A stretch of DNA of 55,795 nt, filler included, from Dugesia japonica (lineage: Eukaryota): NCBI GenBank assembly GCA_001938525.1. It is 5 parts of 5 records of this genome, joined end to end, with 100 filler letters (N's around TTAATTAATTAA, not from the genome) between each part and the next. Parts side by side here need not be neighbours in the genome. Positions count along the whole stretch, not along the records: positions 19,352 to 37,437 come from MQRL01636858.1; positions 37,538 to 46,578 come from MQRL01618752.1; positions 46,679 to 55,795 come from MQRL01627205.1; 2 more parts are not named here. The stretch is one strand, 5' to 3'. Positions 19,252 to 51,145 of the stretch are shown here, piece by piece. Each line of letters opens with the position of its first letter. The first letter of the stretch is position 1. The notes beneath the pieces are model-generated. The model saw only the letters and a list, made by a program, of their open reading frames with translations, was not told where the DNA came from and did not search any database. Both the position numbers and the translations under genes were made by a program.

Positions 19252-19351
19252 NNNNNNNNNNNNNNNNNNNNNNNNNNNNNNNNNNNNNNNNNNNNTTAAT
19301 TAATTAANNNNNNNNNNNNNNNNNNNNNNNNNNNNNNNNNNNNNNNNNNNN

Positions 19352-28356: not shown

Positions 28357-28591
28357 TACAATTACAATTATTATAGCGAGAATAATTGTTGGACGTAACC
28401 ATTGATCGTTTTTTAGAAAACAATAAAATATAAGCTTCGATAAATTTTTTTTGTTTTTATAATTATTCGAATTTTCGACTTAGTCTTCGTCAGGAATTGA
28501 CATTTTCCATTATCTTCAATTCCTGACGAAGAATAAGTAAAAAATTCGAATGGTTATCAAAAACAAAAAATTACTTGAAGCTTATATTTTA
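28357..28591 (-). ncRNA. Fold-back repeat copy A, with a minus-strand minimal hammerhead (28466-28500) and a degenerate plus-strand copy
   Basis: Minus strand reads aattc-CTGACGA-a-GAC-taa-GTC-GAAA-at-TC-gaat; ~75-bp inverted arms; CAATTATT..GCGAGAATAATTG tail. Confidence 0.7.
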
Positions 28592-28929
28592 ATAAATTTT
28601 TTTAATATTAATATTAAATAATTTTAAATATTTAAAATGTAAATAAATTACAGTCTAATAACTCTACATTTTAAAATTTAAAAATAAATAATTGTGATGG
28701 ATAACTGATGCAGACAAATTTTGATTGTTTTATTTCTACTTTTGTTAATTATTATTAAAGTGAAAATTGAGTAAAATTAAGTTGGTTTAAAAAGCCAAAG
28801 ATTAAACTCAATTTTTAAATGTCTTGTTGATGTGACTTTGGACATTTTAGTATTGACCATAGGTAAATTAAAATAATGTTTAAAATTTTGAAAATACGTT
28901 ACAATGGTTAACAAATAGTAATTAAATTC

Positions 28930-29270
28930 ATCAGTCAGTGTTCCTATTACGGGTATGCAAAAGTTTCCATAGATTTAAAAGAATTTTTTTTATTAATTTA
29001 ATTCAAATAACAGTACATTTAGCCAAAATATTTTCCACCACCATTTACTACATTTTTGCATCTTTAAGGCAAAATATAAATATCCCGATGAAAAAAGTCT
29101 TTGCTCTTAGATGGAACGAAGTTATAAATGAATTTTGGAACTTAAACATTGAGATTTTCTATCAGAAAGACTGTTGCAGAGATCGAAATAAGTGAGCATC
29201 TAAAGGTGAAATTCCTAGAGAATATGCCGTTTGTGGTAGAACTTCACATTTTAATTCAATTAAGGTGAAA
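28930..29270 (-). mobile_element. mariner remnant, C-terminal part
   Basis: Reverse-strand SP...LF.SL...F-type segment and W*KCS..NG.Y end; heavily decayed. Confidence 0.45.
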
Positions 29271-29799
29271 ATTGGGAGAATAAATATTTTATCACGAACA
29301 ATAATAAATTTATTATTTCGTTTTATAAATTAATTTTTTTTCATTCAACTTTTGAAAAGAACATCGATACAAATTTAGTTCTTTTAACACATATTTTGCT
29401 TCATTTTATTTATTAATTGAGATGTCAACTATTTAATTTTAAGCTCGCACAAAAGTCATCGTAAAAAAATCATTTCTTGTACGTTGGTCCAACGTTTAGT
29501 TTTTAATTTCAATTTAATTTATTAATTCTAATAAATGGTTTTAATTAAAATTATTCGATATCTAGTTTGTTTGTTTATTCGTTTCAATTTTTGAACTTAT
29601 TTGATTTTTAAAATATATTTATTTGAACAAAGGGTTTTCATTAAATTTTGTGAGAAATTAAATTAATTCTACGAAAACACCTAAAATTATTCAGGAAGCA
29701 TTCAGTGATTAATCATTATCGAGAAAACTGTATTCACATGGCACAGGCTTGTCATAGAAGGTCTTTTTTTGAATGTATAATTTCAAAAATAAATTGAAT

Positions 29800-30530
29800 G
29801 TATATAAAGTGTTTCGAAGTTTATATTCAACGTTTTTCATATATATGTAGCAATGGAAATGAATTACTTTGAAGGAGACAAGAAATTTGTATAAATAATT
29901 AAATAGGTAGTATTTTTCAGGGATAGATCGACATGATAGCCCATATGAGCTTCCGTGCTAGAATATATTGGATGAGGATGCAGTTCCTGGCCATTTTTGG
30001 GGATGGATCCGACAACACGACAATGAACATGTGGATGTGTATTATCGTGCAATACGATATGCTTATTTTTGTGAGGTATTTTCGTCTCTATTGCAGCGCA
30101 AATGTCGTCAAGTTGAGCCAGGTAGACGTCGCTGTTGATATTTAATTGCCGCTTTCCATTTTTGTCCGGTATCCGCTACTGTTGACGCTCATCGTCGTCA
30201 TTCCACCAATAACAAATAACGTTTGAGAGGATTTCCCAGTAAATAATTCCGTTTCTATCTCACCAAACACACCACATTACCTTATGAAAACGCCTTTCGG
30301 TGAAATACCTGGCGAAACACAAACCTTCTTTTTTACGATTTTGAAGAGAAGCCACGATTCATCCCCAGTAACGAGATTCTTCAGTAACATGGTTTGCTCG
30401 TTTCCCTTCAGCAAATCGATGAAAATTAGGATAGACTCAACTTTGATGTTTTATGACAGTTCATGGTAGACCCTTCCAACTAATTTCCATATTTTCTGAG
30501 CTTTTTAAGACGAAAAAAGCAAACGTAATG
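29800..30530 (-). mobile_element. mariner (DD34D-like) transposase remnant
   Basis: LVTGDESW, MHDNTHPHV and LHPHPIYS motifs. Confidence 0.85.
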
Positions 30531-30540
30531 TTTTAATATT

Positions 30541-30590
30541 TTTATTTGCAAGACATTTCGAACAAATCTAGGTCCATCATCAGTTACTGT
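30541..30590 (-). ncRNA. Minimal type I hammerhead ribozyme motif followed by AATAAA (Penelope pseudo-LTR-like)
   Basis: gtaa-CTGATGA-t-GGAC-ctagattt-GTTC-GAAA-tg-TC-ttgc-aAATAAA; stems I and II pair (with G-U). Confidence 0.7.
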
Positions 30591-30719
30591 TGTAAAATAA
30601 GATATGAATTTTTTTTAATTTGTGTGGTATGTGTATTAATTATTTAATGAGCATGTGCAATTAAAAATAAAGGTGAAACTTAACATTTCACATATCTGTC
30701 GAAAATAATTTTAATAAAC

Positions 30720-31480
30720 TAGCATACGTTTTTCGGCTTAATATATGACTACCTCATAAACTCACACTGACCAATTTAACATCACAAATATCAGTTTTTC
30801 TATTCTCTTTTGAAACATCAAGAAAACCAACTAGTTTTTAAGCACTTGGTTACTGTTGATGAAAAATGGGTTGTTTAATATAAAGTAGCGTGGTAAAGAT
30901 CACGGAGTCTTAATTCCATTTCATGACAAACAACATCAATGGCAGATTGCACCTCAATAAGATAATGGTTTCAGTTTTGTTGGATTTTAGAGGTTTCATC
31001 TACTATGAGCTGTTATCATCCCGCACAACTATTGATTCAAATATATACTGCTCACAATTATCTAAATTGAACATTGTAATCCATAAATCGAAAAGATGTT
31101 ATCTTTCAGAATGGCAATAAGAGGCCTCATATCTCTTTGGTCAACCGGATAAAAATAATAAGCCTAGGTTGGGATGTTTTGACTCATCCACTAAAATCAT
31201 TGAACTTGGCTCCTGTCGACTACCATTTATTTCGGTGGTGGCAGAATATCTTGAATGTGAAAACTTTCAAGGATAAGGAATCCGTTAAAGTGCATCTTGA
31301 TTCATTTGTTGAAAATAAATCCAAGGAGTTCTACGAACGCGGAATAATGAAGATGATAGAACGATGAAAGGAGATTATTGCTAAAAAATAGATAACATTA
31401 TTGAAATTGTTTTTATCAATAAAAATTTTTTATTTTTTTCTTCTGAAAAATTTGAACGAACTTATTTACCAATCTAATAT
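30720..31480 (+). mobile_element. mariner transposase remnant with its 3' end
   Basis: LVTVDEKW, KIMVSV, YYELL, LGWDVLTHP..S.NLAPVDYHLFR and FYERGIMK motifs. Confidence 0.88.
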
Positions 31481-32913
31481 AATGTATCAAATATATTTTG
31501 TTTATTTATTACAACATTGTGTTTAGAAAAGTGGATTATAAATTTGTTTTTATTTAAAATTTCTTTTGCGTCCTTAGTAACTAAAAAATTGCCGGTCACA
31601 TGTATAAATTAATATGATAGATTATTCATTAAAACTATTAATTTTTTGATATTTTATGCTTATTATATTAAAAATAGATAGCGATTTCTTATTTAGGTTT
31701 ATTTTAATTTTAGATGCATAAAGTGAGACTTTATTCTTCAATGTTCGCTAAGGGTGTAATACCTTTATTGATTATTAGCTTGCTTAATTATTTTATTAAA
31801 ACTAAAATGTTAGAATGTGCTTTAATATCGCTAAATTTATATAATTGAAAAATAATTCCTGAAAATTCTTTCAAAAGAAATTTTTTACTTTAATTATTAA
31901 AATGCATTATTTTTCGAAATTAAATAACAATTATTAATCCGTAGTTTGATCAAATTTTAAAAGAAATTCGATATAAAATTTTTAAACTGAAATTAATTTT
32001 CTTTAAAAAGCTTAATTATATAAATAACTTTCTAATAGATTATATCGTATAGATCGTTGTAGTAAATTGTACTTGCAAATCTTCGTAACAAACTACTAAC
32101 TTCTGAGTTTAGAAAAATTCATATAGATTCTAAGAATAAATGTAAGTGTAATGAACAATGAAAAGCTCAGGAAGAAGTATCTAACTTATTTCACTGACAG
32201 CATTATCGAGAAAATTACCTTAGGATATGTAGTGCAAATCATGTTCGAATAAAAACAAAGCATCAATTAAATTAAAGTGCATCTAAAATTTAAATGCAAT
32301 TTTATATTATTTTTTTTAATAATGTATAACTTATTAAAATTTAAAAAGAAATTATTATAAAATATATGGTAACATTTTAAAAAAGTAAATTTACTGATTA
32401 AATTGTTTTTTATGACAAATATTAATGTGAGTATTTAATACTGAATTATTAGAAAAATTTTTTGTTCTGTTTATCATTTTGGTTTCTATTTTCCTAAAGT
32501 CTTTCAAAATTCTATTTGTTGTTTTACGCGAAAATTGTTCAATAACATGTTTTATCGATAACAAAATCAAAAAAAAATGAAATGAAAATAAATAAAATTT
32601 CATTATTTCAAAAATTATAAATTTCTGTTCTATTATTACTCTATGCCGTTTAGAATTCATGTTTATGTTAACTAAAATATTTATAAAATTTATTTATATG
32701 AATTAATTTATTAGTAATTAATATTATCTTAATATGCAATATTAATAATTTAGCACTTGTAGTTTAATTAGATAAATTCTTAATTTTTTCTTCTATACAA
32801 TAATCTTCATCGAAATATTTTCTAGTATGTGCCATTTATAATTGCTATATTTAATTAATACATTTTTTAGTTTCGTGTTTAATTAGGTTGAATATAATTG
32901 ATTTTTTAAACAG

Positions 32914-33033
32914 AACAAACCTTTAAATCTTGTGATTCAAGTTGTATTGATTTCGGAATCCGTTAGATTGCAACAATTGCTTGCAACATATGGTATTGTA
33001 TGTCAAACTCCAAGGCAGGTTGAACCTATTCAA
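32914..33033 (+). CDS. PHKB: PHKB next exon, after a 10.9-kb intron
   Basis: NKPLNLVIQVVLISESVRLQQLLATYGIVCQTPRQVEPIQ resembles PHKB [35 protein letters not shown]; flanked by cag| and |gttagt; phase 0 matches 21986. Confidence 0.9.
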
Positions 33034-33319
33034 GTTAGTTTTTATGATTTTAAATTGTATTTATTTTTTAAAATTTTGGTTTATTTACAATCTAATAGTT
33101 TTACTTTCTTTATTGGAAGCTGCTATTATTTTTATTAATTATTTCAATTCAATGAAATAAAATATTTCCACATTAATATTTTTTATTCAAATTTTAATGA
33201 TATGTATTATGAGGAAATAATTATTAATTAATAATTTTACTCAATAGAAATTGAGTTATATAAATATTAATATTAAAATGCTTGTATTTCAATATTATTT
33301 GTATTATGAAACATGGTTT

Positions 33320-36050
33320 GTAGTAGTAAAATAAATGATGTCTCAAAATATTAGTAGTGATTTGCAAAATGAATTACCAATTGAAGATTTACCTAACATG
33401 GTGGCAGCGGTAAATACCGATTCTATTACAGANAGGTTATTGCCGAATATGTTTTGCAGAGGCGATGATATTGAGAAATTTATCAAACGGTGCGAATTGT
33501 ATTTTAAAGCTAAAAACATCACCCAGATGAAACAACAGGAGAGATTAATCTCGTATTTGTTAAATGAAGATTTGTTGGAAGAATATGCAAAGACATTGAA
33601 AACAGTTGAAGGTTTGCAGACTCGTTTACATATGGCATTTGAGAAAAAGAAAGATGTTATCAAAGATTTTCAAAATTTGATTAACTACAGGCGTGGAAAT
33701 GAAGAGATTCAAGTTTATTTTAAAAGTGTAAAAGATTTAGTAAAAAGATTATTTACAAATGAAGATTTTACTGAAGATAAAATGGCAGCAATAATGCTAG
33801 TATATTGTTCAGATAACAAAAAAGTTGAAGAAGTGACTTTGTGGAAACGAGAGAATATAGAAGAAATTGAAGAAACAATGAAGTTAGTAGATCGAATAGA
33901 GAAAAACAGAGATCGAGTTGATGCAGTTAGAAGTTACACAAGAAACCGGTAAATCGGTGAATAAGAAACCGGTGAATAGACATGTCGAGCAAAGAAAGGA
34001 AAAATAAAATATCGAATGTTAGTTATGTCATAAGATCGGTCATACTAAAGCAAATTGTCCGACAAAAAGTGGTAGAGTGCTGGAGTTGTCATAAAACAGG
34101 ACATGCAAGTCGAAATTGTCCAAACAAAAATCCAACAAAATGTTTTGGTTGTGGAAAGGTTGGTCATATTAGAAGGTTATGTCAAAAAGTGAGGTGTAAA
34201 CGATGTGGTAATGGTGGACACAGATCAGAAGAGTGCTAACCAAATTTGAAAGGGAAAAGAACAAGTGAGAAATTTATAACTGCATAAAGATCAAGAAACC
34301 GATATAATCGAGTACATGCGATTAAAGATGAAGATGTCAGTACAAGCGATGTATATGAGGAAGTATATTAAAGTGATTCCGATAGGCCAAAAGGCAGGGC
34401 TCCACTAGTAGAGGAGATGGTTGGAGCCATCCATTGTTAAATGAAGTTAGTAATTATCCTCAAAGGGTCAAAAATTAAGATGATATTGGAAAAGTTACAG
34501 AAAAGTACACAGATTCTTAAATAGTGACAATTTTGCGGAGGATAAAAAAGTAGAATGGGTGGGAACAGTTGAAGTAGAACAGAAAACAAATATTTCGTAC
34601 CATAAATTGCATGGCAGACCAAGTGTTACGGTATCAATTCAAGGAAATAAAGTAGAATGTCTATTAGATACAGGGGCTCGAATTAACGTGATGAGTTTGA
34701 GTGTTTTAATAAATTACAAGAAGTAAATTTAGAAATGAGTGATAAAAGATTGTGTTGTGTGAATAATAGTACACTTGAAATATTTGGGAAAGTTAGAACC
34801 GCAGTGATAATTGATGAAGTTTGCAAAGAGATTACTTTCTTAGTTGCTGAAATAGATATGCAGAAGATTTTTGGATACCAGCTTATGCGAACAGTTGATA
34901 GCAAAACAGATGAAAATGTCGAAAATTACATTTGCAATATTGAAGCAAAATTCTGGAGACAAATTAAAAAATTAGAGCGATTGACAAGAGCCTTAAAAAT
35001 TTTGAAGATTAAAGAGAATTAACATTTATTGAAAATAATTGAAAGTAAAGAAGATGCTTTTGTCGCAGATAAATGGGATGTAGCACGCACACATCTAACA
35101 AGACACAAAATAATCTCAAATGGTGAAAAGTGGTAGGCGGAATCAATGGAGCCATGGTTTATCTTGATGACATCCTGATATTTACGAACAATAATGATTA
35201 ACACTATGAAGTAATTGAAAGAGTATTGACGGAAATAATGAAGAATTAATACGGAAAAGTGTCAGTTTTTTCAAAGTGAAATTANNNNNNNNNNNNNNNN
35301 NNNNNNNNNNNNNNNNNNNNNNNNNNNNNNNNNNNNNNNNNNNNNNNNNNNNNNNNNNNNCAAACCTAACTGTGTGAAGAATATACGAAGTTTCTTGGGA
35401 ATTTGTAATTATTACCGGAAGCTTATAGATATTTACGCAAGAAAATCAAAGATATTAGAGCAGTTGTGCAGAAACCAGAAATTAGAATGAACAGATGAAA
35501 TAAACGATATTTTTGAGGGTATGAAAACATCTCTAATGACTGCACCAATATTGTGTTTTCCGGACATAAACATAGAATTTATATTAGATACGGATGTTAG
35601 TTTTGATACGATTGGAGCAGTATTGTCACAGAGAGATAAAGACGGAAGAGAAAGAGTTGTTGCCTATGGATCACACTCAATGACAAGTCATGAAAAAGGA
35701 TACTGCATTACACGAAAAGAATTATTGGCTGTTTGTTATTTCTGTATGCATTTCAAACATTACTTGTACGGTAGGAGATTTACTCTTAGAACAGATCACA
35801 AATCTCTAACTTTCATGATGACGACAAAGAAACCAATTACGTTGCAATTCCAGGCATGGATTAATTATCTGAGCAGTTTAGANNNNNNNNNNNNNNNNNN
35901 NNNNNNNNNNNNNNNNNNNNNNNNNNNNNNNNNNNNNNNNNNNNNNNNNNNNNNNNNNNNGTCAAATGTCACATGAAGATGCCAAGAAAGGGAAGATTAA
36001 ATCGAGAATACTGAACATAATTGAAAAGGAAAAAAACATCATTTAAACAT
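33320..36050 (+). mobile_element. Ty3/Gypsy remnant (gag, four CCHC knuckles, protease, deleted RT, RNase H), related to the copy at 2010-3150
   Basis: 205-aa gag ORF; CxxCxxxGHxxxxC repeats; LLDTGA, YLDD, LDTDVS..IGAVLSQ, KELLA and RTDHK motifs. Confidence 0.92.
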
Positions 36051-37537
36051 TTCTGAGGAAACAGATTTGATCAAGAATAAGAAAATTCCGGATGCTAAAC
36101 TACATGAAATTATTTGTTTAAATTCGGTGTTTATCTTCAATGTTCATTTTCAAATTCATTTTAAATAAAACATTTATCACATCAAGGAACAGATTACAAT
36201 TAAAAAGATATATTACTCTAATTTTTGGAGGAAGTCAACAATAACGTTTGCGGTAAGAAATTTTAATTATTATTTTATTTATTTGGTACATTTGAGATGA
36301 GATGAAACTAGTACTGAAAAGATTAATTCTAAAGTTTGCGGAGAAATAAAGATCATGGGTACGGAATGAATATTGAAAGAATGTGGTTCAGATGTCTAAT
36401 CTCGATATGGAAGAAATATTATTGTTCTTTTATAATTTTAACGAATATGGATTTGGAAGCGGTGACAGTCATTGATATATTTTTCAATCTGATACACTAA
36501 AATTGATAATAAAACAGAAGATCAAGGACAATCAATTATTTTGAATCGAAATAAATGTATCTTATTATATTTGTTATTTCTTTGTTAATTATTTACTATT
36601 ATTTTTTTTTACTGTCAATGTCAAATGAAATCGCTTAGTTTATACAAAAAATTAATAATTATACTTAATTTAAACAAGAATAATTTCACTTCATTTAAAT
36701 AAAAAATATTTAAAAAATCATAGTGAGGTGTTCCAGTGCGCTTCTATCTCACTACGTTTTAATATATAAAACAACTTAAAACATTAAAAACAGTTAATAT
36801 GTAAAAACCGTGCATTTTATTTAAAAATATTGAAATAATTAATAAAATAACATATGTAAATAAATTACCATCTTTAGTTATTATATCAAATGTCATTTGC
36901 TATTTAATATTTTAGTATGAAATACTATTTTATTTGTGTTTAAAATGCTTTATATTAAAATTAATTACTTATTATAGTTCTTCAAGGTTTAAGTTCTTTA
37001 TTCATGATTATAAATTTTTTATTCAAGGTTTTAAAATTTTTCAAGATTATAGTTTTTCTTATTTAAAGTTCTAAATTTTATAAAAAATTTTTAGAGATAT
37101 ATAACTTATTAAATTGCATCAAATAAGTTAAAGATATTGAAAATACTATTAAGAATGTTGTTTAATAAATAAACGGCTCTCTTGTGAGCATTACTTAACA
37201 CTTCTAATTTTTTTCTATAAACAATTGCATTGGTTTAAGTAGTCATTGTTGCTGGATAAAATTTCATTTAGTGCTCCTTCTATGGTTATTCCATTATTGA
37301 TAGGTTTAATGCTTCTAAATTTAGATGTTTTTGATGGTAAGGAATTCTAATACAACTTTTTTAAAAATAAGAAAAAGCTTCGATCAAAATAAAATTTATT
37401 TGTAAAAAGGTTCAAATTTTCGACAATATTCTTCTTCNNNNNNNNNNNNNNNNNNNNNNNNNNNNNNNNNNNNNNNNNNNNTTAATTAATTAANNNNNNN
37501 NNNNNNNNNNNNNNNNNNNNNNNNNNNNNNNNNNNNN

Positions 37538-37900
37538 GTCTAAGAGAACAATGGAAATTTGCCTTTGTTTCCTAAATCCATATCATCACGAAACTTTCAA
37601 ATCAGGTATAAATTCTTCCAAAAAATAGATGAACGCTACTTAACAACCAGAAAAGCCGGCTCAGATTGTATTTTGGAAGAGTTTTAGCAGAGAAAAGATG
37701 GCGTAAAGAAAACTGAAAAAATATGCCGGAAATACATACTATTAGACAATTCAGAGTAAGAAATTACGTTCTTGTGAAACTATAAACAAGGAATGAAAAT
37801 CAAGACAGATTCAAAGATGCTCATCGTATAAATGAGAACATTTGTGACATAGTGTATGCAGTACAAGACATGGATGGAAAACGGTTAGAGAGGAATATTA
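37538..37900 (+). mobile_element. Gypsy integrase 3' end remnant
   Basis: TTRKAGSD and GKRLERNI segments parallel 6530-6840. Confidence 0.6.
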
Positions 37901-38199
37901 ATAAACTTTAAAATACTTTTGAGGTGAATATAAAGAAAATATGTTTATTAAAAATTTTGGAAATTTGATTTTTTAATTTGAATTTGGAATTAATTAAAAT
38001 TGTTAGCCAATAAAAGTAAGTTAAATTAAATTTAATTAGAAAATTTTTCGTTTTCTAGTTTTTGTTAAAGCTAAATTTTAATTTTTTTAACAAATTATGT
38101 ATGAAACTGATAATGTCCTTTTTGAAAAAAAATTGTATAACAACATGGAGCTAATATTTCAGAAAATATATATTAGATTAACGATGCTAACTAAATAAG

Positions 38200-39170: not shown

Positions 39171-39348
39171 ATAATATTAATATTACTAATATTAAACACA
39201 ACTTTTATTCGGTAATTTACCAACAAATTTGATTGATTTTTAATTTAAGATTATTATTTTTCTAATACTTTTTATTGATTATACTATTGATTTTTATAGA
39301 AAAAATAAAACAAATCTGATTTCAAGCATTTTTCAGGAAAGACATTTT

Positions 39349-39709
39349 TTAATCAAAAGTATTATTTTCGAAATTTATAGCATATCGAAAAGAGCATCTA
39401 ATTTAATCAGAATTTCAGAGTTTTTGATATATTTAATAAAGTAAAAATTTTTCAATAATCTAAATTTGTTATGAAAAATGAATTTACNNNNNNNNNNNNN
39501 NNNNNNNNNNNNNNNNNNNNNNNNNNNNNNNNNNNNNNNNNNNNNNNNNNNNNNNNNNNNNNNNNNNNNNNNNNNNNNNNNNNNNNNNNNNNNNNNNNNN
39601 NNNNNNNNNNNNNNNNNNTATCAAAAACTCTGAAATTCGAAAAATTCTGATTAAATTAGATGCTCTTTTCGATTTGCTATAAATTTTGAAAATAATACTT
39701 TTGATTTCA
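39349..39709. repeat. Long inverted repeat (~80-bp arms) flanking a gap, MITE or fold-back
   Basis: ATCAAAAGTATTATTTTC...CAGAGTTTTTGATA versus TATCAAAAACTCTG...GAAAATAATACTTTTGAT. Confidence 0.8.
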
Positions 39710-40555: not shown

Positions 40556-40940
40556 TTATAAGCAACAGGCTCTTTTCAAAATCGAAGGTTTTCTTAATTT
40601 AATAACATCTGAAGCTGAAATGATTAATACAGAACTTGAAAAATACTTTTCCAACAAAAAAATTACTTTGAACATCAATCATATCTGAATATCCATGAAT
40701 TTGTTCCCAGATTTGAACTGCTCTAGAAAATCCAATATCGACATTAGTGTTCTCTTTGGCGCTAGTCGGTAAATATGGGATTCCATTTTCCAACCAAGAA
40801 AACCCTGTGTAGTTTGACTGATCAGCCTTACTATCTTTCTTTGTCATATCAGATATTTTCACNTCCTCTTTGGTGGATAAAGAAGCAGAACATTTTTGTT
40901 TAGTAAATTCCGCAACTTGTTTTAATGATTCACCATGTGT
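40556..40940 (-). CDS. RAB9: Rab9 exons 3-4 (40940-40667 and 40614-40556)
   Basis: THG...ENGIPYLPTSAKENTNVDIGFSRAV...IDVQ|TSDVIKLRKPSILKRACCL*; G5 TSAK and C-terminal CC; 52-nt GT-AG intron. Confidence 0.85.
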
Positions 40941-41130
40941 CTATAGACTAAAGTTTAATTTATCATTTCATGTGATTTTAAATTAATCGAATTAAATTCC
41001 AAAATCGATCATTAAATATCAATAAAATTTTTTTCAGAGAGTATTGAAATATTTTTATTAATAAAACTTTAATTGGTTTTCAATTCATAAATTACCGATT
41101 TTACATCGTTTATGAATACAATATTTTTTT

Positions 41131-41320
41131 ACAATTGCAATTATTGCGAGAATAATTGTTGGACTTAAAACTATTGATCGTTTTATAGAATTCATTTAAT
41201 ATAAAAGCTTTAATCAAAATTTTGGTTTTTTNATTGATATTGGATAACAAATGGATATTTCGACCTTGTCTTCGTCAGGAATCGACTTTTGTTATATTAA
41301 GCTTTTATATTAAATGAATA
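41131..41320 (-). ncRNA. Fold-back repeat copy B with a minus-strand hammerhead core (~41253-41286)
   Basis: attc-CTGACGA-a-GAC-aag-GTC-GAAA-ta-TC; same tail as copy A; the right arm is reduced to AAGCTTTTATATTAAATGAAT. Confidence 0.65.
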
Positions 41321-41399
41321 CAATATTTATTTAATTAATTAGTCAATTCATTTTAATTATCATTTTGAAAAATTGATGATTTAGATAAATTCTGCTTTA

Positions 41400-41990
41400 C
41401 ACTGCTTTCATTGGTTGTCAAATGATATTCGATTAATCATGTGTGTGCTTTATCATTTATAATACCACGAAAATTTATTGGGTTAACAATTTAACAAAAT
41501 TTTCGTATTTGTTCGAGTAATTTATAGTGGAAAAATTGATTTTGAGAAAGATAAATAAGAGTAATAATTTTTTTCTAACTTTAAAGCCAGTTGAAATCAG
41601 AATATTTGAAAAATACATAAAATATTTTTTTTATCATTATTACTTATCATTTTTGTTTACTAAACAATTTAAAAATTTTTGAATGAGAGACGTTGATGAT
41701 TATATTTCATAATCCAAGCATCAATATACAAACAATTCTTTCAACTAAATTAGTAAACGTTTTTTGAATTTAAATTTGAATTTTTTGTTTTTATAATATA
41801 GATTTCTAATTTAATGTTAGGATTTTAACAATTTAAATTTTTGACAGTATAATTGCTTAAATCTTTGTTTGAATGATATCATATTTTTCATTTTGTCTGA
41901 TGACGACGGTTGATCCGTCAAAATATTTATCAATAAAGTTTTATTTTAAACGGCATTATTTAATTTTTACTAAAATTTGACATTATTTTT
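41400..41990 (+). mobile_element. Deleted Penelope-like remnant with a degenerate hammerhead and AATAAA
   Basis: VDD and NPSINIQ fragments; CTGATGA-c-GACGG-ttgat-CCGTC-AAAA (GAAA mutated) at 41897-41923, then AATAAA. Confidence 0.55.
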
Positions 41991-42170
41991 CTTACACACA
42001 CACATATATATATGTGTGTGTGTGTTGTTGCAAAAATAGGAATACAGTAGTATCACATCAGTGAAATTAGTTGCAAATTAAATAGTTTGCACTCATCATA
42101 TAATCATATTTTATTTAAACTAATAAAAATTCACGTATTTTATATTAACTTTTTTATTTTTTGTAGCTGA

Positions 42171-42438
42171 CCCTACAGTGTGTAATTGTTTTTTAAATAA
42201 AATAAATCGTACATAAAACATATATTGGAGCATGAAAAAAAGAAATAAAATAAATATTTTATTATTTTTAGTATTTATACATAAAAAGTATTTTAAAAAA
42301 ATAGTTAAGTAAATTTTAAAAAGATTTAAAAAATTTAAGTATTTAAAAAAGTGGAACAGGGCATAAGTTGTTATTTATGCTGTTGTTCAATAAAATATCA
42401 AAGAAATATGCACATGTGCATCAATGCACACTGTAGGG
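42171..42438. mobile_element. piggyBac-like MITE
   Basis: CCCTACAGTGTG...CACACTGTAGGG|TTAA; the left TTAA is degenerate (CTGA). Confidence 0.7.
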
Positions 42439-43123
42439 TTAATGCGGCAATATAACCATGCTGATCATTTTTCGAAAGAGAAGCGCAAATGGATTTTAAA
42501 AATACTGAAAAACAAAGAATTTTAAGTGTAATAGATGAGTTTTTTATTTTTTTAACCAATGGGACCCACTATTTATCGACTATGTGAGAAATTTGAGCAG
42601 ACAAGTAGTATCCAAAGCACACGCAAGAGTGGTAGATTAATTATTGTGACCACTCTAGTGAAAGGCATTCACCCAACACAACTAAGTCTACATTAACACT
42701 TGACTAATTAGTTATAAGTCAGTGAAAATTAATCAACTAGAATAAATTAATAATATAAAACTCTAATTTATTTTTCAGTAGTTTCAGTTTGGTAGAATTA
42801 TTAAAGTATAATATCATATATCAAAGTTAAGTTAATAATAATTAAGTTAATAATTTCGGAATACACTTCAGAACCAATAACTAATAAGTTTTTCTGTTAT
42901 TATTAGATTAATATTACTAAATTGATATTATCTAATTATTCAGTTATCTCAATATTACTAGGATATGAATTATCATATTTATGCTTATAATTAATACTGA
43001 AAATTGACTTTATTATTAAGATATTTTGGTGTGTTGAAAGTTTTTGATTTAATTTTATCGAATATATGATCGTTTTTACATTTTTAGGTTATATACTAAA
43101 TTTCATTTTAAAGAGTAGATTTT

Positions 43124-43265
43124 ATAATTACAATTATTGTGAGAATAATTGTTGGACTTAACCATTTATCGTATTTGAGATTTCATTAAAATAAAGTAAT
43201 AACTTCGATCAAAATAAAATGAATTTGAATTTCTTTACAAATACATTTTATTTTGATCGAAGCTT
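43124..43265. repeat. Fold-back repeat copy C (tail plus short hairpin, no hammerhead)
   Basis: Same tail as copy A; arms CTTCGATCAAAATAAAATG / CATTTTATTTTGATCGAAG. Confidence 0.75.
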
Positions 43266-43624
43266 TTTCTTTATTTTAAAGAAGTAGATTTTATATTTTA
43301 TTAAATACTAAATTAGAATTAATCTTAATATGAAAATATTTTTTTGAATGAATTTTAATACTTCAGAAAGTTGAGATTAATTATAAATTATTAAAGTTTT
43401 AAAAGAATTTAAGTTTTGCTGATTTTTGAAAAAAATATTTTTTGGTTTAAAGCATTATGCGGAATATTTGTTTATATATTCACTTAAAGAAAATAATAAG
43501 CGAAAAGTTCAAAAAAGGTTGGAATTTATTGTCAAGGACAGAATTGTTTTAATGAATAAAATAAAATTATGTTGAAAATAATAACCTATAATTAATTAAT
43601 AATAATAATAACTAATAAATAATT

Positions 43625-43845
43625 TACAATTGCAATTATTGCGAGAATAATTGTTGGACGTAACCATTGAACGTTTTTGAGATTTCATTAATCTAAAAGC
43701 TTCGATCAAATTTTTTTTATAATATTTTGAATTTTCGATATAGTTTTCATCGGAATTGATTTTTTCAATTCCTGATGAAGAATATTTCGAAAATTCGAAA
43801 TAATATCAAAACGATTTTGATCGAAGCTGCTATTTTAATGAAAAC
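43625..43845 (+). ncRNA. Fold-back repeat copy D, with a plus-strand hammerhead (43765-43800) and a degenerate minus-strand copy
   Basis: aattc-CTGATGA-a-GAA-tat-TTC-GAAA-at-TC-gaa; stem II shows a compensatory change relative to copy A. Confidence 0.68.
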
Positions 43846-43949
43846 TAATAATTAATTAATAACAACTGACGATAATTTTTATTAAACCAGCAAATTGGAA
43901 ATCATTTCTATTACATACAAATATACTTGCTATATAGTTTTTCATTTAT

Positions 43950-44830
43950 TTAGACAAAAAGAAAAACTAAATTCAATTTTTATGATCATTCAATCTTAAT
44001 ACCTATAATTATTTGCAAAGAAAATGGAGTGTCAAATAGAATAATACGGTCATTTCCGACATATATTATTATTAAGTCAATTGAGAAGTTATAGCACTGG
44101 AAGCCGCTAGAACCAACTGTGTTGTTTATGGAAAGAATGCAGCTGTGGAGTATAACACGAAAACGGTTTTTCCATTTCAAAGAAAGTAATTTTGACAAAC
44201 TTTTTTCAACGTTCTGAAAGACAATCAAACCTTGATGAGGATTATATGATGTCTTATTTTATTAGAATTCAAGCCAAGCAACTCCGGAATTATTCATTCT
44301 GATAGATTATAACCAGTGAACTAAAGTGAGACATTTAAAATCCATGGACAAAGTTCAAAATATGTGCCACATGCTTTAACTAAAATCAATAAAAATCAAC
44401 ATGTCAACATTTGAGCCTCATCGCTAGCTCATCATTACTTAGTTCGTCAAGTGTGCCTTTACGAGAACACCAAGAAAATAAAGAAATAACTTAGCCCTAA
44501 CAAAAAGGCAACTTCTCCAGAGAAACCTAATACTCAACCGTGTAAAGTGATGTTGTGGGACAAAATGATGTCATATACTATAAATTGCTTCCAAAAATAT
44601 AACTATTACTTCCAGCATTATTAATGCCAATAACTTAATCATATTGAAGCCACAATCAAAGAAAAAAGACCGAAAATAAATCATAAAGTATTTTTGTAGC
44701 ACGATAACACTCAATCTTCCACTGCTAACATCACAAAGGCAGAGTTTCAGGATCTTGGTTGGGAAGTCATTCTACATCTACTTTACTCTTCACGTTTCGT
44801 TCCATCATATTTTTGCCTGTTTCAATTTCT
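43950..44830 (+). mobile_element. mariner remnant inside Rab9 intron 2
   Basis: HDNTQSST and LGWEVILHLLYSS..VPS.FCLF motifs; many stops. Confidence 0.75.
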
Positions 44831-45263
44831 AGCTAATAAAACCAACATTAATCGTGTCATTGATGAAATTAGAGCTGATTTGTGTGAAAAAGTTACCAAA
44901 AAAAGGGGTTTCAGAATCACATTTCTTAAAGCGTCCAGATGCAATCATTTACAAGAAATGATTTTTTAATGAAAATTTTATGAACCAATATTTAATATAA
45001 ATATAAATCACATTGGCATCTTATATATCGTTTTCTTTTTATTTCAAATTAAAAATATTTAGCTGTTATTTAATAACCCTTATCTGTATTCAACTTCATT
45101 CTTATATAAAATTGAGAGAAACATAATTTATCAAAATAACTCAATAGATATCTAATTACTAGTTTTATAAATTTCCTCTGCACTGTACAGAAAATAAAAG
45201 AAACGTTGGCTGAATCGATTAATTAATGAATTAGATTTTAATCAAATTTCAATTGAAACTTAC

Positions 45264-45739
45264 TGCACACCAATCAAGAATTTTTTGTTCTTCAACATTT
45301 TCCATATTTAAATCGCATTTATTTCCGAAAACAATAAAAGGAAATTTCGTATTTTGTTGGCCGGAATATCTGAGAAATTCTTGCCACCAAACCTCTAAAT
45401 GATCAAAACTATCTACATTATCAAATGAAAATGTTAATACACATATATCAGCTCCACGATAAAACGGTGTTCTCAAACTCCGATATTTTTCTTGTCCAGC
45501 CGTATCCCAAATCTTGATGATAAATTTTATAGCACTTTTTACTTTATTATAATAAATCTTGCTTGCAATAGATATCTCTGATTGTTTACAACGATTTCTT
45601 TTCGAAGAAATTCTACCCCAATTGTATGATAATTGTCCTCTTTATATTTGTTTGTAACATATCGTTGCATCAATGAAGACTTTCCAACATAACAATCACC
45701 AAGAAGTATTACTTTTAATAAAATTACACAATCTGACAT
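45264..45739 (-). CDS. RAB9: Rab9 exons 1-2 (45739-45563 and 45512-45264)
   Basis: LLKVILLGDCYVGKSSLMQRYVTNKY...HTIGVEFL..|[24 protein letters not shown]...FPFIVFGNKCD; SLRTPFYRG is typical of Rab9; 50-nt GC-AG intron. Confidence 0.92.
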
Positions 45740-46679
45740 TTTTGAGAGTAATTATTTATAAAAATGAAGTTATAAATTTTCTTGGTCATTTTTTGAAATA
45801 TTTTTTAATAGTTTTCACTTGTTAACAAAGGTCAATCAAAGAATAAAGTTCAATTTAGTTTTTTATGATTAAAAATAATCAATTAATTTAATCAATTAAT
45901 TATTTTCTACTTACAGACTTTAATATAGAATTTGACAATTACTATTTATTTGTAATTTTGAAATTTAATTAAAAATTTTAATTAATGAAATTTTCCACTT
46001 GTGTTCAAATAGATGAAATGATAATAAACCTTTCAGCAGAAATTATAAATTGTTTTGAAGATGTTATAGTTGCTTAATAAAATTTATACTTATCAGTCAG
46101 TTAATTACACGCACATACACATCAACTTAATTTTAATAATTTAGTTTATATTATATGGTATAATATTAAAATTATTTTTTGAAATATTTATATATTAAGT
46201 ATATTTTTTAGAAATTATTTGAAATATTTTATTGTAAAAAATGTATTAGTAGATTTTTGAAATAGTACACATTTTTCGAATGTTTTCCAATGGTTCCTAT
46301 TATTTTTCTGTTCATTCTAGAACCAATAATAATATATACACACAAATATATAAAATCAAATTTTACTAAATAATTCATTTTTGAAAATGACAGATTTAAT
46401 CGCACCTCAATATGACACTATGAAATGATTAGACAATTTGGGATATGCAGCAAAGATAATGAAGATTTTTAGATGGGCAATGAAAGAAATGTTGGATGTA
46501 AAGTTAATTCAATCATTGATTAAAGATATACTTTGGATTATCATAAGTATTTATCCAGATGTGTAGAGAACAGAGCAGNNNNNNNNNNNNNNNNNNNNNN
46601 NNNNNNNNNNNNNNNNNNNNNNTTAATTAATTAANNNNNNNNNNNNNNNNNNNNNNNNNNNNNNNNNNNNNNNNNNNNT

Positions 46680-47910
46680 TAATGTCGTGTTTAAAATCAA
46701 TATTTTTGTCTAAATTTAATTTTGATTTTTCTTCGCTCATTTTTTTAAAAATGATTTAATTCTAATTAATTTTAAAAATAAAGTTATTTTTTTTTACTAA
46801 AAATAATTGTTCCATGCATGGAACTTTTTAACCAATCAATTTAATTCAAAACGAACAATGGCATTGTTCACTTTCTAAAAATAAATTATTTAATTTTCGA
46901 TTTATTTTTAGAATGGTACGGCGCGCCGTACTTTTCTATTTATAGTTATTATTAAAAATTTTNNNNNNNNNNNNNNNNNNNNNNNNNNNNNNNNNNNNNN
47001 NNNNNNNNNNNNNNNNNNNNNNNNNNNNNNNNNNNNNNNNNNNNNNNNNNNNNNNNNNNTTTTTTTATTGTTTTGAAAACAAAAAAGACTATAAATTTTT
47101 TATTAATAAAAAAAATCTAATAATTGTTAGAACTAGTATTTAAATATTTCTNNNNNNNNNNNNNNNNNNNNNNNNNNNNNNNNNNNNNNNNNNNNNNNNN
47201 NAAAAATAATTTAATTCTAATTAATTTTAAAAATAAAGTTATTTTTATTTACTAAAAATAATTGTTCCATGCATGAAACTTTTTAACCAATCAATTTAAT
47301 TTAAAACGAACAATGGTATTGTTCACTTTCTAAAAATGAATTATTTAATTTTTCAAATTTAATTTTCGATTTATTTTTAAAATGGTACGGCGCGCCGTAC
47401 TTTGCTATTTATAGTTATTATTAAAAATTTTATTTTCAAATTAATTTGTTATATAAATTTAATGATGTTATTTTTAATAAATTTATTTTGTTAATTCTTT
47501 TAATAATTTTATATTTAAATAATTTTATTTTTTTATTGTTTTGAAAACAAAAAAGACTAAATTTTTTATTAATAAAAAAATATTCCAATAATTGTTAGAA
47601 CTAATATTTAAATATTTCTATATCAATTTTTCATGATAATTAAATCCATCATTTTGCTATAATTAATAATTTAATAAATTAATAAACTATAAATAATTTA
47701 CCTTATTATNNNNNNNNNNNNNNNNNNNNNNNNNNNNNNNNNNNNNNNNNNNNNNNNNNTTAATAAATTTATTTTGTTAATTCTTTTAATAATTTTATAT
47801 TTAAATAATTTTATTTTTTTATTGTTTTGAAAAAAAAAATAGACTTTAAATTTTTTATTAATAAAAAAAAAATCCAATAATTGTTAGAACTAGTATTTAA
47901 ATATTTCTAT
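46680..47910 (+). repeat. Tandem array of a ~470-bp AT-rich unit with a GC palindrome, possibly a Helitron-derived concatemer
   Basis: GTACGGCGCGCCGTAC at 46916 and 47385; other segments occur three times; gaps blur the copy number. Confidence 0.8.
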
Positions 47911-48953
47911 TTAAAAAGCATTTAAATCTGAAGACTGCGTTGGCTGGTTAATGATGGTAATGCTGGGAACAAGTCTCCGAAGTCATTGAAGTGTTTAACA
48001 TTATTCTTTCCAACGTGAGGGCGAGCATTGTCGATTTGAATAATCACATTCTGACACTATTGCACTTTTTTGCTGATTGTTGACACAATTTCATTAGTAA
48101 TCTGGTCGAAAAAATTATCTGCCGTTATTAGACAATCAACTTTGTAAATATCATTCTTATTATGACTTTTAGAAGAACGCCAGACTTCGACATGTTTCTG
48201 AATTCTTTAAATAACAATCAATCCATTAAAGCCATTTCTCATATCAGGCTTAATAATAGCTGAAAGTATGATGATTTTTGATTGATTACCTTTAATGAGT
48301 AATGACTGTTTCTTCGTGGACTGTTATCAGGATATCAATGGAAAGGATATAACTCAAACCACTTCTCATCTATATGAACATGAACATTCCATAGATTATA
48401 ACGATTCTGTCTACTCCATTTTAGCTTCTATAATTTCTGATAATCACTTAAGCGAGGACTGATTCTTAGGGCAAAAGTCTTATTCTTTCTTTGATAATTC
48501 TTCGAACACTAATATTAGGAATATTAGTCTCTTCAAAAAGAGACGCAATGCTAGAGAATTAGCACTAGCAAAAATCTTCGACAACTCATTGTCATCTANN
48601 NNNNNNNNNNNNNNNNNNNNNNNNNNNNNNNNNNNNNNNNNNNNNNNNCTGAACCACTCTTTTTTATCCAGTATACCTTTTTCAAAATATTTTGTTCTTA
48701 AATTGTAGGCATAATCTTTGTTATCATGGAATGCGTCGCATAAATTTTCCATTTTACATATTCTGGTAGCACTTTTCCAATTTTCATATGAATACACTTA
48801 TAGTGAATTAGCAATAATAGTTTTTAATCATCTGATAGCGTCATAGTATCTAAACAATATTATTTCAGCTAAACAAAAAAGAATTACTAACGTTTTTTTA
48901 AATTTTGGTTGTTAACAATAAATAAATGAATCGGTTTTTTTTATGGTATACAG
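47911..48953 (-). mobile_element. Second IDEKWF-type mariner-like remnant
   Basis: HVHIDEKWF and QIDNARPHVGKNN motifs; 5' end TA|CTGTATACCATAAAAA resembles the end at 20258. Confidence 0.8.
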
Positions 48954-50934
48954 TAAGTATATATATTTATTTAGAGTGTTTATCATATATGTTAACATAC
49001 TTTCATTTCATATTGCAAGTTTGAATTAGATATTGGTACNCCAAAATTCAGAATTAAGAAAAAAGGCAATCAAGAAAGAAACATCATTTTATCACTCCAC
49101 CACCAAGTAAACAAATTATTAAATAATTAATGGAAAATCTTAAAAATACTGAAAGTGTAAATGGTAAAATAAAATCAAGTCGATTTCGTTCTATTATAAG
49201 GAAAGAAACCATTCAGGTTTTTTTTGATAAATGCTTGAGCAATTGATTAATTTATCAATCTAACAAAGTGCTCTTAAATTAGACATAAATGTTAGCAGCG
49301 ACTGCAATGCCACTAAATTGGTAAGGTTTCACTCATTTAAACTGACTACAATAATTAAGCTTTGCAAATATGACTTTGATAGATGAATCGAGTAAGTAAA
49401 AAAATATTAGCAGAATATTTAAAACCCTTCAATTAAATTTTACATGTACATTGCAGAAATTTTCAAATTAAAAATAAGTATAAAACGTTTTACACTTAGT
49501 ATTTATATTTAAAATTCTTTCAATTAAATTAAAAATTTTAAATTACAAATTTCTACAATGAAATTTTAAATTTACATTTAAAACTGACTTTACATTAAAC
49601 TGACTTTTTTTCTTTGATGTTGATAAAAAAAATATGAAATCCAAGTAAGATACATAGACCATATAAATGTATATCGTTTTTTGCTATTGATGAAAGTTTT
49701 TAGATTTTATTTTTATTAAAGATGCCATAATAACGACCGATATTCAGCTTAACTATGAAAGAAAACATACTATAAATGTTGCTATAAAGACAAAAAATAT
49801 TTCTAAAGCCACTAGATATTTATAATTTTTGTTAAAAGTTGCAGACTGAATATTTTGATAACAATTATTAGGAGAGAACAATCAATGGATGACCAACAAA
49901 ATAAAACTAGATTAATTAAAATTAGATTAATTAGAAAGTTAATTAGATTTAAAAGAAATTTAATATCCAGCAGAAAAATATATGATTTGACTTTTTCGGA
50001 TGAGAAGAGCTTTGACCAATATATTACAAAGCTAACAAACGAAATGACAGATGATCATGCAATGCCTCCTTATTTCTTTCTTTAATGTCATAGTACTAAG
50101 TCTGATGCTATTATTGATTTTCATATAATTAGATTTAATTTCTGGATTTACTTTATATGAAATGTAAAGATACATCCGATTACTACGGGTGGAGCGTTAA
50201 ATAGAGAGAGGCCAGTAAATTCCTTAACACCACAAATGATTTTTTCCAAGTTGTAACATTAAGAATCGTTTAATTCAACCACATAGACGTTATTGTAGCT
50301 GATTGTGTCTTCATTGAAAAAAATTATAAAAATATACATTATTCCTTCGTTAAAGTGTTATTCCATAATAAAATTAGTTAATTTTTTTTATTAGATATAA
50401 TATCTAGAATAGTAAAAAGAAGAATAATATTAGAAGCTTACCAGAAATGTTCTAGTTAAGATGAAGCACTTAAATGATCTTAATTACATCATTAATTGTG
50501 TTGGAAATCTAAATCAAGAGGTTACATAAGTAATTACACATAACTGACGATCTTTAGCTCATATTTAAAGAAAATGAAATAATTTTAATTAAAATAAATT
50601 AATTATAATAATTCATATTAATTATTTTAATCACGCAGTTTAATTTATATTATAAATAACTTTAAGCAGCTACTATATATAATATAAATTTGTAAAAAAA
50701 AATAAAACATAAATAAAAAACAAGATAAATTAGATAATAAATAAATAATTATCAATATTTCTTTAGGATGACATTAATCCGGTTCTCATGAAAATTGAGA
50801 TGAATAATAATATCGAAATGTAATAATAATAAATCAAAATGTCATTAGAAATAAAATTTTATAATAAATAATGTGAATTTTTTGATAAATAAAATTTCAT
50901 AATTTAATTCTTAAAAATAAATTCTATGAATTAG

Positions 50935-51145
50935 TGAAATTTAATCAAAATTTATTTTTTTGGTTTTTGATATAAAATTCTATATTTCGACTTTGTCTTC
51001 GTCAGAAATTGACTTTTTTAAAGACGAAATTTAGAATTAGAAAAAAAAACAAATTTTGATGGAAGCTTTTATTTTAAATGAATTCTGAAAAACGATCAAT
51101 GATAACGCCCAACAATTATTCTCGTAATAATTGCAATTATAAAAT
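50935..51145 (-). ncRNA. Fold-back repeat copy E (reverse orientation) with a minus-strand hammerhead (~50976-51012)
   Basis: aattt-CTGACGA-a-GAC-aaa-GTC-GAAA-ta-TA-gaatt; tail CCAACAATTATTCTCGTAATAATTGCAATT on the right. Confidence 0.68.

What the first reader, a model, noticed from the sequence alone, without database searches (positions are those of the whole stretch)
28357..51145. Dispersed non-coding fold-back family carrying hammerhead ribozyme motifs on opposite strands
Seen: five ~140-240 bp copies (28357, 41131, 43124, 43625, 50935 reversed) and two fragments (~27078, ~37370). They share an unpaired tail followed by an inverted duplication. In the fullest copies each arm holds CTGA(C/T)GA-a-stemII-GAAA-NN-TH with a pairing stem I, so the two cores face away from the hairpin centre on opposite strands. 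Stem II covaries (GAC/GTC versus GAA/TTC) while its loop varies (taa, aag, aaa, tat). Known: Penelope-like pseudo-LTRs carry such minimal type I hammerheads, whose tiny palindromic stem III (here AATT or ATAT) suggests dimeric cleavage, and they often insert with inverted ends. Inference: this is an abundant non-autonomous ribozyme retro-element (retrozyme-like) mobilised by Penelope RT, and it could yield self-cleaving RNA in either polarity or long hairpin dsRNA. In each copy here only one core looks intact.
Basis: partly seen in the sequence, partly recalled or inferred. Interest (0 to 1): 0.78.

Follow-up and report, generated by a model that had tools for sequence, protein, structure and literature searches.

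The report
Penelope fold-back remnants in a planarian
These short hairpin-shaped repeats with a self-cleaving-RNA motif are real and very abundant in a planarian flatworm genome, but they look like the short leftover insertions that Penelope-type jumping genes are already known to make, not a new self-propagating RNA element.

Summary
The family is real: five 160-240 bp copies and two fragments in a dugesiid planarian genome, three inside Rab9A intron 2. Four minimal type I hammerhead cores lie in copies (0.1 expected by chance). DNA runs show a sharp tail end with over 1,000 contigs running into unlike flanks. The layout (tailed arm, head-to-head untailed arm, TSD) is the described Penelope inverted pLTR plus tail, and opposite-strand minimal hammerheads were reported in Schistosoma. 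A single hairpin master is disfavoured: arm variants group by copy (33 sites) not by side (2), and the junctions differ. Read-through RNA buries the ribozyme in the hairpin; stem II covariation rests on one arm; RNA is passive on both strands with no ends at the cut site. Best model: a Penelope RT primes both target strands at two internal start sites 66 nt apart and copies the short 5' end of its RNA twice. No autonomous partner was found. The scan noted the same pattern in two other genomes, called shark-type in those notes.

The parts
28355..28594 (-). Copy 28k, the fullest: tail 28355-28423, tailed arm 28424-28500, 15-nt loop 28501-28515, untailed inverted arm 28516-28594 (strand given = ribozyme sense of the tailed arm)
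   Evidence: (z -12.0)
28469..28493 (-). Minimal type I hammerhead core: 3-bp stem II, palindromic stem III AATT, C17, 4-bp stem I
28343..28358 (.). TSD left copy; partner 28595-28610; 15 of 16 identical
   Evidence: null p 0.004
41128..41313 (-). Copy 41k: tail, tailed arm with core (C3 41278, N17 41254, stem I lost), untailed arm only about 24 nt
41112..41131 (.). TSD left copy; partner 41314-41333; 19 of 20 identical
   Evidence: null p 0.0005
43121..43282 (-). Copy 43.1k: tail, tailed arm cut about 37 nt in, untailed arm reaching only the 3' half of the hammerhead
   Evidence: (z -7.5)
43114..43124 (.). TSD left copy; partner 43283-43293; 11 of 11 identical
   Evidence: null p 0.0095
43623..43835 (-). 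Copy 43.6k: tail, both arms reach the hammerhead; intact core on the untailed arm (+ strand, C3 43772, N17 43796, 3-bp stem I), core on the tailed arm broken
   Evidence: (z -10.2)
43603..43624 (.). TSD left copy; partner 43836-43857; 19 of 22 identical
   Evidence: null p 0.001
50944..51147 (+). Copy 50k, opposite orientation: tail 51078-51143, tailed arm cut inside the core, untailed arm with intact core (- strand, C3 51005, N17 50981, 5-bp stem I)
   Evidence: (z -3.6)
50935..50943 (.). TSD; partner 51148-51156; 9 of 9 identical (the weakest of the five)
   Evidence: null p 0.043
27078..27107 (+). Tail-only fragment, about 30 nt, between two identical 8-mers at 27065 and 27104 (possible TSD; AT-rich, may be chance)
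37362..37437 (-). Untailed-arm fragment of the 43.1k subfamily (51 of 58 identical), cut by an assembly gap
43633..43653 (-). Tail stem-loop (8-bp core stem, variable loop) about 10 nt from the tail end, shown for copy 43.6k; candidate RT start signal
40559..45739 (-). Host Rab9A gene; intron 2 (about 45263 to 40941, GT..AG) holds copies 41k, 43.1k and 43.6k
   Evidence: (spliced loose end)

Best explanation
These are ORF-less insertion products of a planarian endonuclease-positive Penelope-like element: a tailed pseudo-LTR piece joined head-to-head to an inverted, tail-less copy of the same piece, inside one target-site duplication. Mechanism, inferred by analogy with the anole Penelope element PAc: the RT-endonuclease binds a stem-loop about 80-145 nt downstream of the hammerhead and nicks both strands of AT-rich DNA with a 9-22 nt stagger. 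It primes cDNA from each nick at one of two internal start sites, the tail end and a site 66 nt upstream. Each cDNA runs towards the 5' end of the uncleaved RNA and stops 7-19 nt before the hammerhead core, or earlier. The two products are joined head-to-head. The copies then decay. Read-through RNA of either strand folds back and buries the ribozyme, so the copies are tolerated in introns. SHOWN: the anatomy, TSDs, shared outer ends, variable junctions, arms grouping by copy, high abundance and passive two-strand RNA. INFERRED: the Penelope enzyme, twin priming, the position of the template 5' end, and that the tail is the start of the partner's ORF.
For: TSDs flank tail plus fold-back in 5 of 5 copies, and each own pair has the top score in its row of the cross-copy control. 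The tail end is sharp at 43119-43120 and 43623, with 327, 333 and 523 DNA contigs of run X1 running into unlike flanks (agreement 0.44-0.47). A second shared end lies at 43283 (145 RNA reads, agreement 0.48). The untailed arm ends within a few bases of the same point, 66-69 nt from the tail end, in 4 of 5 copies; the 50k copy ends about 20 nt short. Junctions differ: 6 of 10 arms stop 7-19 nt 5' of C3 and 4 stop earlier. Informative sites are 33 by copy, 2 by side and 0 cross, over 10 non-independent quartets. Literature: inverted pLTR, optional 31-bp tail and 9-10 bp TSD in Adineta (PMC3846280); an inverted 5'-truncated copy and a 30-40 bp tail as general PLE features (PMC8557442); dual minimal hammerheads 100-700 bp apart on opposite strands in Schistosoma mansoni, ascribed to truncated PLEs (PMC4209133); a minimal hammerhead in a partial Schmidtea PLE (its supplement); two internal RT start sites that define the tail, both strands nicked and extended, and uncleaved RNA as the main substrate (PMC11167929). 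The tail reads as an ATG-started frame of 22 codons in 2 of 5 copies, and the untailed arm stops at that ATG, much as the Adineta pLTR and tail overlap the ORF start.
Against: No autonomous partner was found. None of 131 stop-free frames of 58 aa or more in the window has a GIY-YIG hit, and the RT hits sit with RNase H and protease pieces of LTR elements. The 45-aa tail frame gave 0 hits among 1.84 billion representative proteins. None of the loose-end rows shown continues into a common ORF (24 of 2,284 rows shown). The tail (65-68 nt) is about twice the 30-40 bp in the papers read, and stem II (3 bp) is shorter than the 7-8 bp of the Schistosoma motifs. Two variant sites are shared by side between the 28k and 43.6k untailed arms. 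The tree resolves only the 28k arm pair (89/89). By-copy grouping could also come from gene conversion within a hairpin or from young, perfect hairpin masters. The tail frame is short and is broken in 2 of 5 copies.
Confidence: 0.72

Rival explanations
1. A linear non-autonomous monomer (hammerhead, arm and tail, about 150 nt) is its own short transcription unit, SINE-like, and is twin-primed in trans by a Penelope RT. The fold-back arises anew at each insertion, but the template is the short RNA and not the mRNA of an autonomous element.
For: Very high abundance with no ORF seen. Six of 10 arms stop in a narrow zone just 5' of the core, as at a transcript start. The tail stem has 0 of 80 differences against 6.5 expected. 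pLTRs act in cis for mobilisation in trans (PMC3846280).
Against: RNA reads come from both strands about equally, 83-95% run on into unlike sequence, and no start or end pile lies in the element. Internal priming on a normal PLE mRNA gives the same product without a separate unit.
Confidence: 0.15
2. One reading: the whole fold-back is a self-propagating retrozyme-like unit that self-cleaves in either polarity and perhaps circularises.
For: TSDs enclose the whole unit. Both outer ends are shared. There are 2 by-side sites, and GAA occurs in three untailed arms. A few contigs join a right end to another tail (1-3 contigs per run).
Against: 33 by-copy sites and differing junctions. No copy has two intact cores. 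The core is buried in read-through RNA. The copies are not tandem, whereas non-LTR retrozymes are tandem repeats with canonical hammerheads (PMC7229834; bioRxiv 10.64898/2026.07.22.740005). No RNA ends at the cut site.
Confidence: 0.08
3. A non-autonomous DNA element (Helentron/HINE or foldback/MITE type) with a chance or captured hammerhead-like motif.
For: A small stem-loop about 10 nt from a T-rich end resembles HINE ends (PMC4067079). The copies have long inverted repeats, no coding capacity and AT-rich targets.
Against: 9-22 bp TSDs of varying length; Helentrons leave none and MITE families leave fixed-length ones (recalled). The inverted repeats are not terminal, since a 65-nt tail lies outside them. 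The arms are 5'-truncated to different extents, which is an RT signature. Four hammerhead cores against 0.1 expected.
Confidence: 0.04

Closest known systems
Canonical EN+ Penelope-like element insertion units: inverted pLTR, pLTR and tail (Adineta vaga Pen2a, PMC3846280; scheme in PMC8557442)
   Same: Head-to-head inverted repeat, tail on one arm only, TSD around the whole unit, variable truncation, hammerhead in the repeat, tail possibly overlapping the ORF start.
   Different: No ORF and no second direct pLTR in any of the five copies; tail 65-68 nt against 30-40; TSD-like repeats 9-22 bp against 8-10; at least about a thousand insertions against very few in Adineta.
Minimal hammerheads of metazoan PLEs, including opposite-strand pairs in Schistosoma mansoni (PMC4209133)
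   Same: Type I core, extra nucleotide before stem II, G10.1-C11.1, palindromic 15.2-16.2 with no loop 3, 4-5 bp stem I, dispersed single motifs, pairs on opposite strands.
   Different: Stem II only 3 bp in the window copies (4-5 bp in the commonest variant among laid contigs) against 7-8 bp; the two cores lie about 30 nt apart against 100-700 bp.
PAc, Poseidon element of Anolis carolinensis (PMC11167929)
   Same: Hammerhead about 80-145 nt upstream of two fixed ends, a stem-loop near the end, AT-rich targets, uncut hammerhead in the copies, no RNA ends at the cut site.
   Different: PAc is autonomous and was tested in vitro. The parts read do not propose twin priming as the source of fold-backs. 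No enzyme is known for the planarian family.
Non-LTR (animal) retrozymes (PMC7229834; bioRxiv 10.64898/2026.07.22.740005)
   Same: Short, non-coding, type I hammerhead, AT-rich, PLE-related.
   Different: Retrozymes are head-to-tail tandem repeats with canonical hammerheads and abundant circular RNA. These copies are dispersed head-to-head fold-backs with minimal, mostly broken cores, and three lie in an intron.

Membership tests
EN+ Penelope-like element insertion | Hammerhead motif in the terminal repeat | tested here: met
   4 cores, all in copies, against 0.1 in shuffles
EN+ Penelope-like element insertion | Inverted 5'-truncated copy adjacent head-to-head | tested here: met
   5 of 5 copies; junctions differ
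EN+ Penelope-like element insertion | Tail extension at one end only | tested here: met
   65-68 nt, sharp end in the laid contigs; longer than the 30-40 bp reported
EN+ Penelope-like element insertion | Target-site duplication of variable length in AT-rich DNA | tested here: met
   5 of 5, null p 0.0005-0.043, own pair best in each row; no empty allele was seen
EN+ Penelope-like element insertion | Sequence continuity with an RT plus GIY-YIG ORF | tested here: inconclusive
   None in the window; 0 protein hits; no genome held; a 22-codon ATG frame in the tail is suggestive only
Minimal PLE hammerhead | Core, N9 bulge, G10.1-C11.1, palindromic stem III, short stem I | tested here: met
   Met with stem I of 4 and 5 bp at 28493 and 51005; 3 bp at 43772 (no C11.1 partner change needed, G-C kept); stem I absent at 41278
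Minimal PLE hammerhead | Cleavage as a dimer | not testable with these tools
   A one-sided double-hammerhead fold scores +0.2 to +5.1 kcal/mol against dimer minima of -16.6 to -19.3: not favoured without help
Non-LTR retrozyme | Head-to-tail tandem repeats, each with a hammerhead | tested here: not met
   No tandem array at any copy; tandem-like joints 1-3 contigs per run among the rows shown
Non-LTR retrozyme | Canonical type I hammerhead (6-bp stem I, 4-bp stem II) | tested here: not met
   Minimal cores; no Rfam hammerhead match at E up to 1
Non-LTR retrozyme | Abundant monomeric linear and circular RNA | tested here: inconclusive
   Two cDNA/oligo-dT runs, 6% and 25% read: no discrete ends, depth 0-17 per strand over the hammerhead bin; such libraries lose circles
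Helentron/HINE | 12-15 bp subterminal inverted repeats, 3' stem-loop, TT insertion without TSD | tested here: not met
   Stem-loop present, but 9-22 bp TSDs and no subterminal repeat pair; the absence of TSDs in Helentrons is recalled
MITE or foldback DNA transposon | Terminal inverted repeats abutting a fixed-length TSD | tested here: not met
   The tail lies outside the inverted repeat and TSD length varies

The most novel reading that the evidence does not exclude
The family is a high-copy record of an unreported step in Penelope transposition: twin priming from two internal RT start sites on a short uncleaved RNA that begins just upstream of the hammerhead. That RNA may be a dedicated non-autonomous monomer of about 150 nt. 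Each insertion would then be born as a head-to-head fold-back that silences its own ribozyme and supplies hairpin dsRNA from host introns. Thousands of dated copies would let the start sites, nick stagger and template 5' end be read from the genome alone.
Probability: 0.25. Interest if true: 0.6.

Novelty: new member of a known kind. Interest (0 to 1): 0.3.

Why it matters
How Penelope elements make their tandem and inverted ends is still called undefined in the papers read (PMC8557442, passages). A planarian family with at least about a thousand short, TSD-bounded fold-backs is a good natural data set for choosing between twin priming and the self-priming model of PMC3846280. It is also a likely unannotated or misannotated repeat in a regeneration model, and a possible source of intronic dsRNA in an RNAi-competent animal. 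It does not establish a new class of ribozyme element.

Tried and rejected
No whole genome is held for this window, so copy number, empty sites and ORF links could not be tested directly. Rfam at E up to 1 gave only a chance miRNA-hairpin match. Two short patterns found 0 matches in metagenome contigs and one found 0 in viral contigs; these collections are not expected to hold planarian DNA. The 45-aa frame covering the tail found 0 proteins. Pfam on all 131 stop-free frames of 58 aa or more found LTR-element, Tc1/mariner, hAT-like and Rab pieces but no GIY-YIG. The run search listed no indexed RNA holder (no evidence either way); two raw RNA runs were laid instead. 'Opposite strand' joints at 43712-43718 to 43811 were not used, because they fall at mirror positions of the palindromic reference. 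Summed contig depth (1.2 million against about 12) is not a copy number and was not reported as one. Pair counting on the tail stem shows no two-sided change, so it gives no covariation support. Literature searches for this family: 'Dugesia' with 'hammerhead ribozyme' gave 1 review, 'Schmidtea' with it gave 7 listings, and searches listed no paper on it by title or abstract start. Lunse et al. on dimeric PLE hammerheads is not held (title seen only in a reference list). Repbase and Dfam were not available, one supplement file of PMC4209133 could not be searched, and the bioRxiv supplement is closed, so the family may already be catalogued.


Full report
Setting. The window is AT-rich animal DNA (GC 16-31% per 2 kb) with many assembly gaps. 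A Rab gene at 45739-40559 on the minus strand is closest to Dugesia japonica Rab9A (best hit 90% on the query frame, next 58%; exons mapped), so the host is a dugesiid planarian. No whole genome is held. An RNA loose end at 45264 reads into the next exon and the intron has GT..AG ends. Three of the five copies therefore lie in Rab9A intron 2.

The observation. BLAST and profile searches give five copies and two fragments at the stated places and nothing else below E 0.8. Each copy has a 65-68 nt tail followed by an inverted duplication. The four copies folded with shuffles give z = -12.0, -10.2, -7.5 and -3.6. A minimal type I hammerhead descriptor hits four places in the window, all inside copies, against a mean of 0.1 and a maximum of 2 in 300 shuffles. 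Stem I has 4, 0, 3 and 5 bp at 28493, 41278, 43772 and 51005. Rfam finds no hammerhead. No copy has two intact cores. The claimed stem II covariation rests on one arm, and GAA also appears uncompensated in two other arms, so it is not evidence of selection.

All five copies lie between direct repeats of 16, 20, 11, 22 and 9 bp (15, 19, 11, 19 and 9 identical). Null p values from 2,000 random flanks are 0.004, 0.0005, 0.0095, 0.001 and 0.043, and each copy's own pair scores highest in its row of the cross-copy control. The far ends were anchored by eye and the repeats overlap the element ends by a few bases, so exact lengths are soft. Tail and fold-back were thus inserted in one event.

Abundance and ends. 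Laying two DNA contig sets and two raw RNA runs on 43000-45800 at 80% likeness placed 35,555 and 35,321 contigs, with depth concentrated on the two copies. The tail end is sharp: 327, 333 and 523 contigs of X1 leave at 43119, 43120 and 43623 into unlike flanks (agreement 0.44-0.47). That points to at least about a thousand insertions. Seven pieces in 55.8 kb suggest far more, but summed depth is no copy number. A second shared end lies at 43283. The commonest variant 5' of 43222 is another hammerhead with a CTGAAGA core and a palindromic stem II. Depth falls steeply from tail to hammerhead, as expected for 5' truncation or faster divergence there. Only 24 of 2,284 loose-end rows and 15 of 272 joint rows were shown.

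One master, or built at each insertion? With all arms turned to ribozyme sense, variants shared by both arms of a copy outnumber variants shared by side 33 to 2, with 0 cross, over 10 quartets that are not independent. Arms within a copy are 78-89% identical. The tree of the nine longer arms supports only the 28k pair (89/89) and a 43.1k/37k subfamily; two short arms were left out. The junction differs between copies: 6 of 10 arms stop 7-19 nt 5' of C3, two stop inside the core and two stop well before it. The outer end of the untailed arm is the same within a few bases in 4 of 5 copies, 66-69 nt from the tail end. Two fixed outer ends and a variable middle are what two primed, independently terminated cDNAs would give. 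Gene conversion, later deletion of hairpin centres, or young perfect masters are not excluded, and the two by-side sites remain unexplained.

Can the ribozyme act? The cores face away from the centre, so a read-through transcript of either strand makes the complement first. P(stem II) in whole-copy RNA is 0.000 for three copies and 0.019 for the 41k copy; for free arms it is at most 0.15, and a one-sided double-hammerhead fold is 17-24 kcal/mol above the dimer minimum (nearest-neighbour models miss tertiary contacts). In the stranded run X22, element reads come from both strands at similar depth (for example 338 against 235), 95% of reads run on into unlike sequence, and the only end piles are at the Rab9A 5' end. 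This fits passive inclusion in host transcripts. It is weak evidence against cleavage, because the libraries are cDNA or oligo-dT and depth over the core is low. In Rab9A sense none of the three intronic copies has a complete ribozyme.

Mechanism. Frangieh et al. (PMC11167929; parts 1-2 of 4 read) showed that a Penelope protein nicks and extends both strands of AT-rich DNA, starts RT at two internal sites in a stem-loop downstream of the hammerhead, that the tail is the stretch between them, and that uncleaved RNA is the main substrate. Here the two fixed ends lie about 80 and 145 nt downstream of the core, with a stem-loop 10 nt from the tail end. Its 8-bp stem has 0 of 80 differences against 6.5 expected (post hoc and seed-biased; no covariation). 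The tail reads as an ATG-started 22-codon frame in 2 of 5 copies, and the untailed arm stops at that ATG. I infer twin priming from a staggered double nick, run-off near the RNA's 5' end and head-to-head joining. Arkhipova et al. explain inverted junctions by self-priming instead (PMC3846280; passages and Discussion read). The enzyme was not found, so the Penelope link rests on anatomy.

Comparison with what is known. An inverted pLTR, a tail on one end and a 9-10 bp TSD are described in Adineta and as general PLE features (PMC8557442, passages; PMC8969392, passages). Cervera and De la Pena (PMC4209133; parts 1-2 of 4 read; supplement passages) report dual minimal hammerheads 100-700 bp apart on opposite strands in Schistosoma mansoni, a second opposite-strand motif at the 5' end of a truncated PLE, and a motif in a partial Schmidtea PLE; they found low cleavage and only in multimers. 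Non-LTR retrozymes are tandem and circular (PMC7229834, passages; bioRxiv 10.64898/2026.07.22.740005, part 1 of 5), which is not met here. HINEs share a terminal stem-loop (PMC4067079, passages), but the TSDs and hammerhead argue against them. I saw no paper on this Dugesia family (listings only), and PMC11410931 does not mention Penelope; repeat databases were not searchable. Two earlier notes of this scan describe the same pattern in other genomes, called shark-type in the notes; they are unchecked and were read after my first reading was recorded.

Verdict. The feature is real and abundant, and it works like, and very probably is, the ORF-less inverted-pLTR-plus-tail product of a Penelope-like element. 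It is a new member of a known kind. Its value lies in the mechanistic record, which a genome-wide analysis could test. Interest 0.3.

Noticed in passing
window 39351-39706: A different inverted repeat, arms at least 65 nt and 97% complementary, spanning an N gap (39488-39618); another fold-back family or an assembly artefact.
   Followed up: no
window 44836-45160 and 44316-44410: Further moderately repeated segments in Rab9A intron 2: summed contig depth 300-3,400 against about 12 on exons. Unnamed repeat families.
   Followed up: no
window 1891-5894, 17713-18272, 33335-35880: Broken LTR-retrotransposon pieces (RT, RNase H, protease, zinc knuckle).
   Followed up: no
window 19669-20037, 24939-25942, 30914-31117, 52144-54830: DNA-transposon remnants: Tc1/mariner-type, DUF659 and BED-finger/hAT-like pieces.
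   Followed up: no
window 10505-10801 (-): A second Rab-family frame about 30 kb from Rab9A; Rab2-like by recalled motifs; gene or pseudogene not tested.
   Followed up: no
window 9201-9300, 19252-19351, 37438-37537, 46579-46678: Identical 100-nt spacers of N44, a 12-nt AT palindrome and N44: scaffolding filler, not biology. They create false repeats.
   Followed up: yes
window 43593-43622: About 140 RNA reads in X22 align partly to the flank of the 43.6k tail with shared differences, probably one well-expressed transcript elsewhere that carries a copy.
   Followed up: no
window 423-760, 6966-7192, 18914-19172: 31-bp and 54-bp tandem arrays, the latter at two sites 12 kb apart.
   Followed up: no
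window 45283-45680: Both RNA runs differ from the DNA at eight or more fixed Rab9A exon positions, so they come from a different strain than the window.
   Followed up: no
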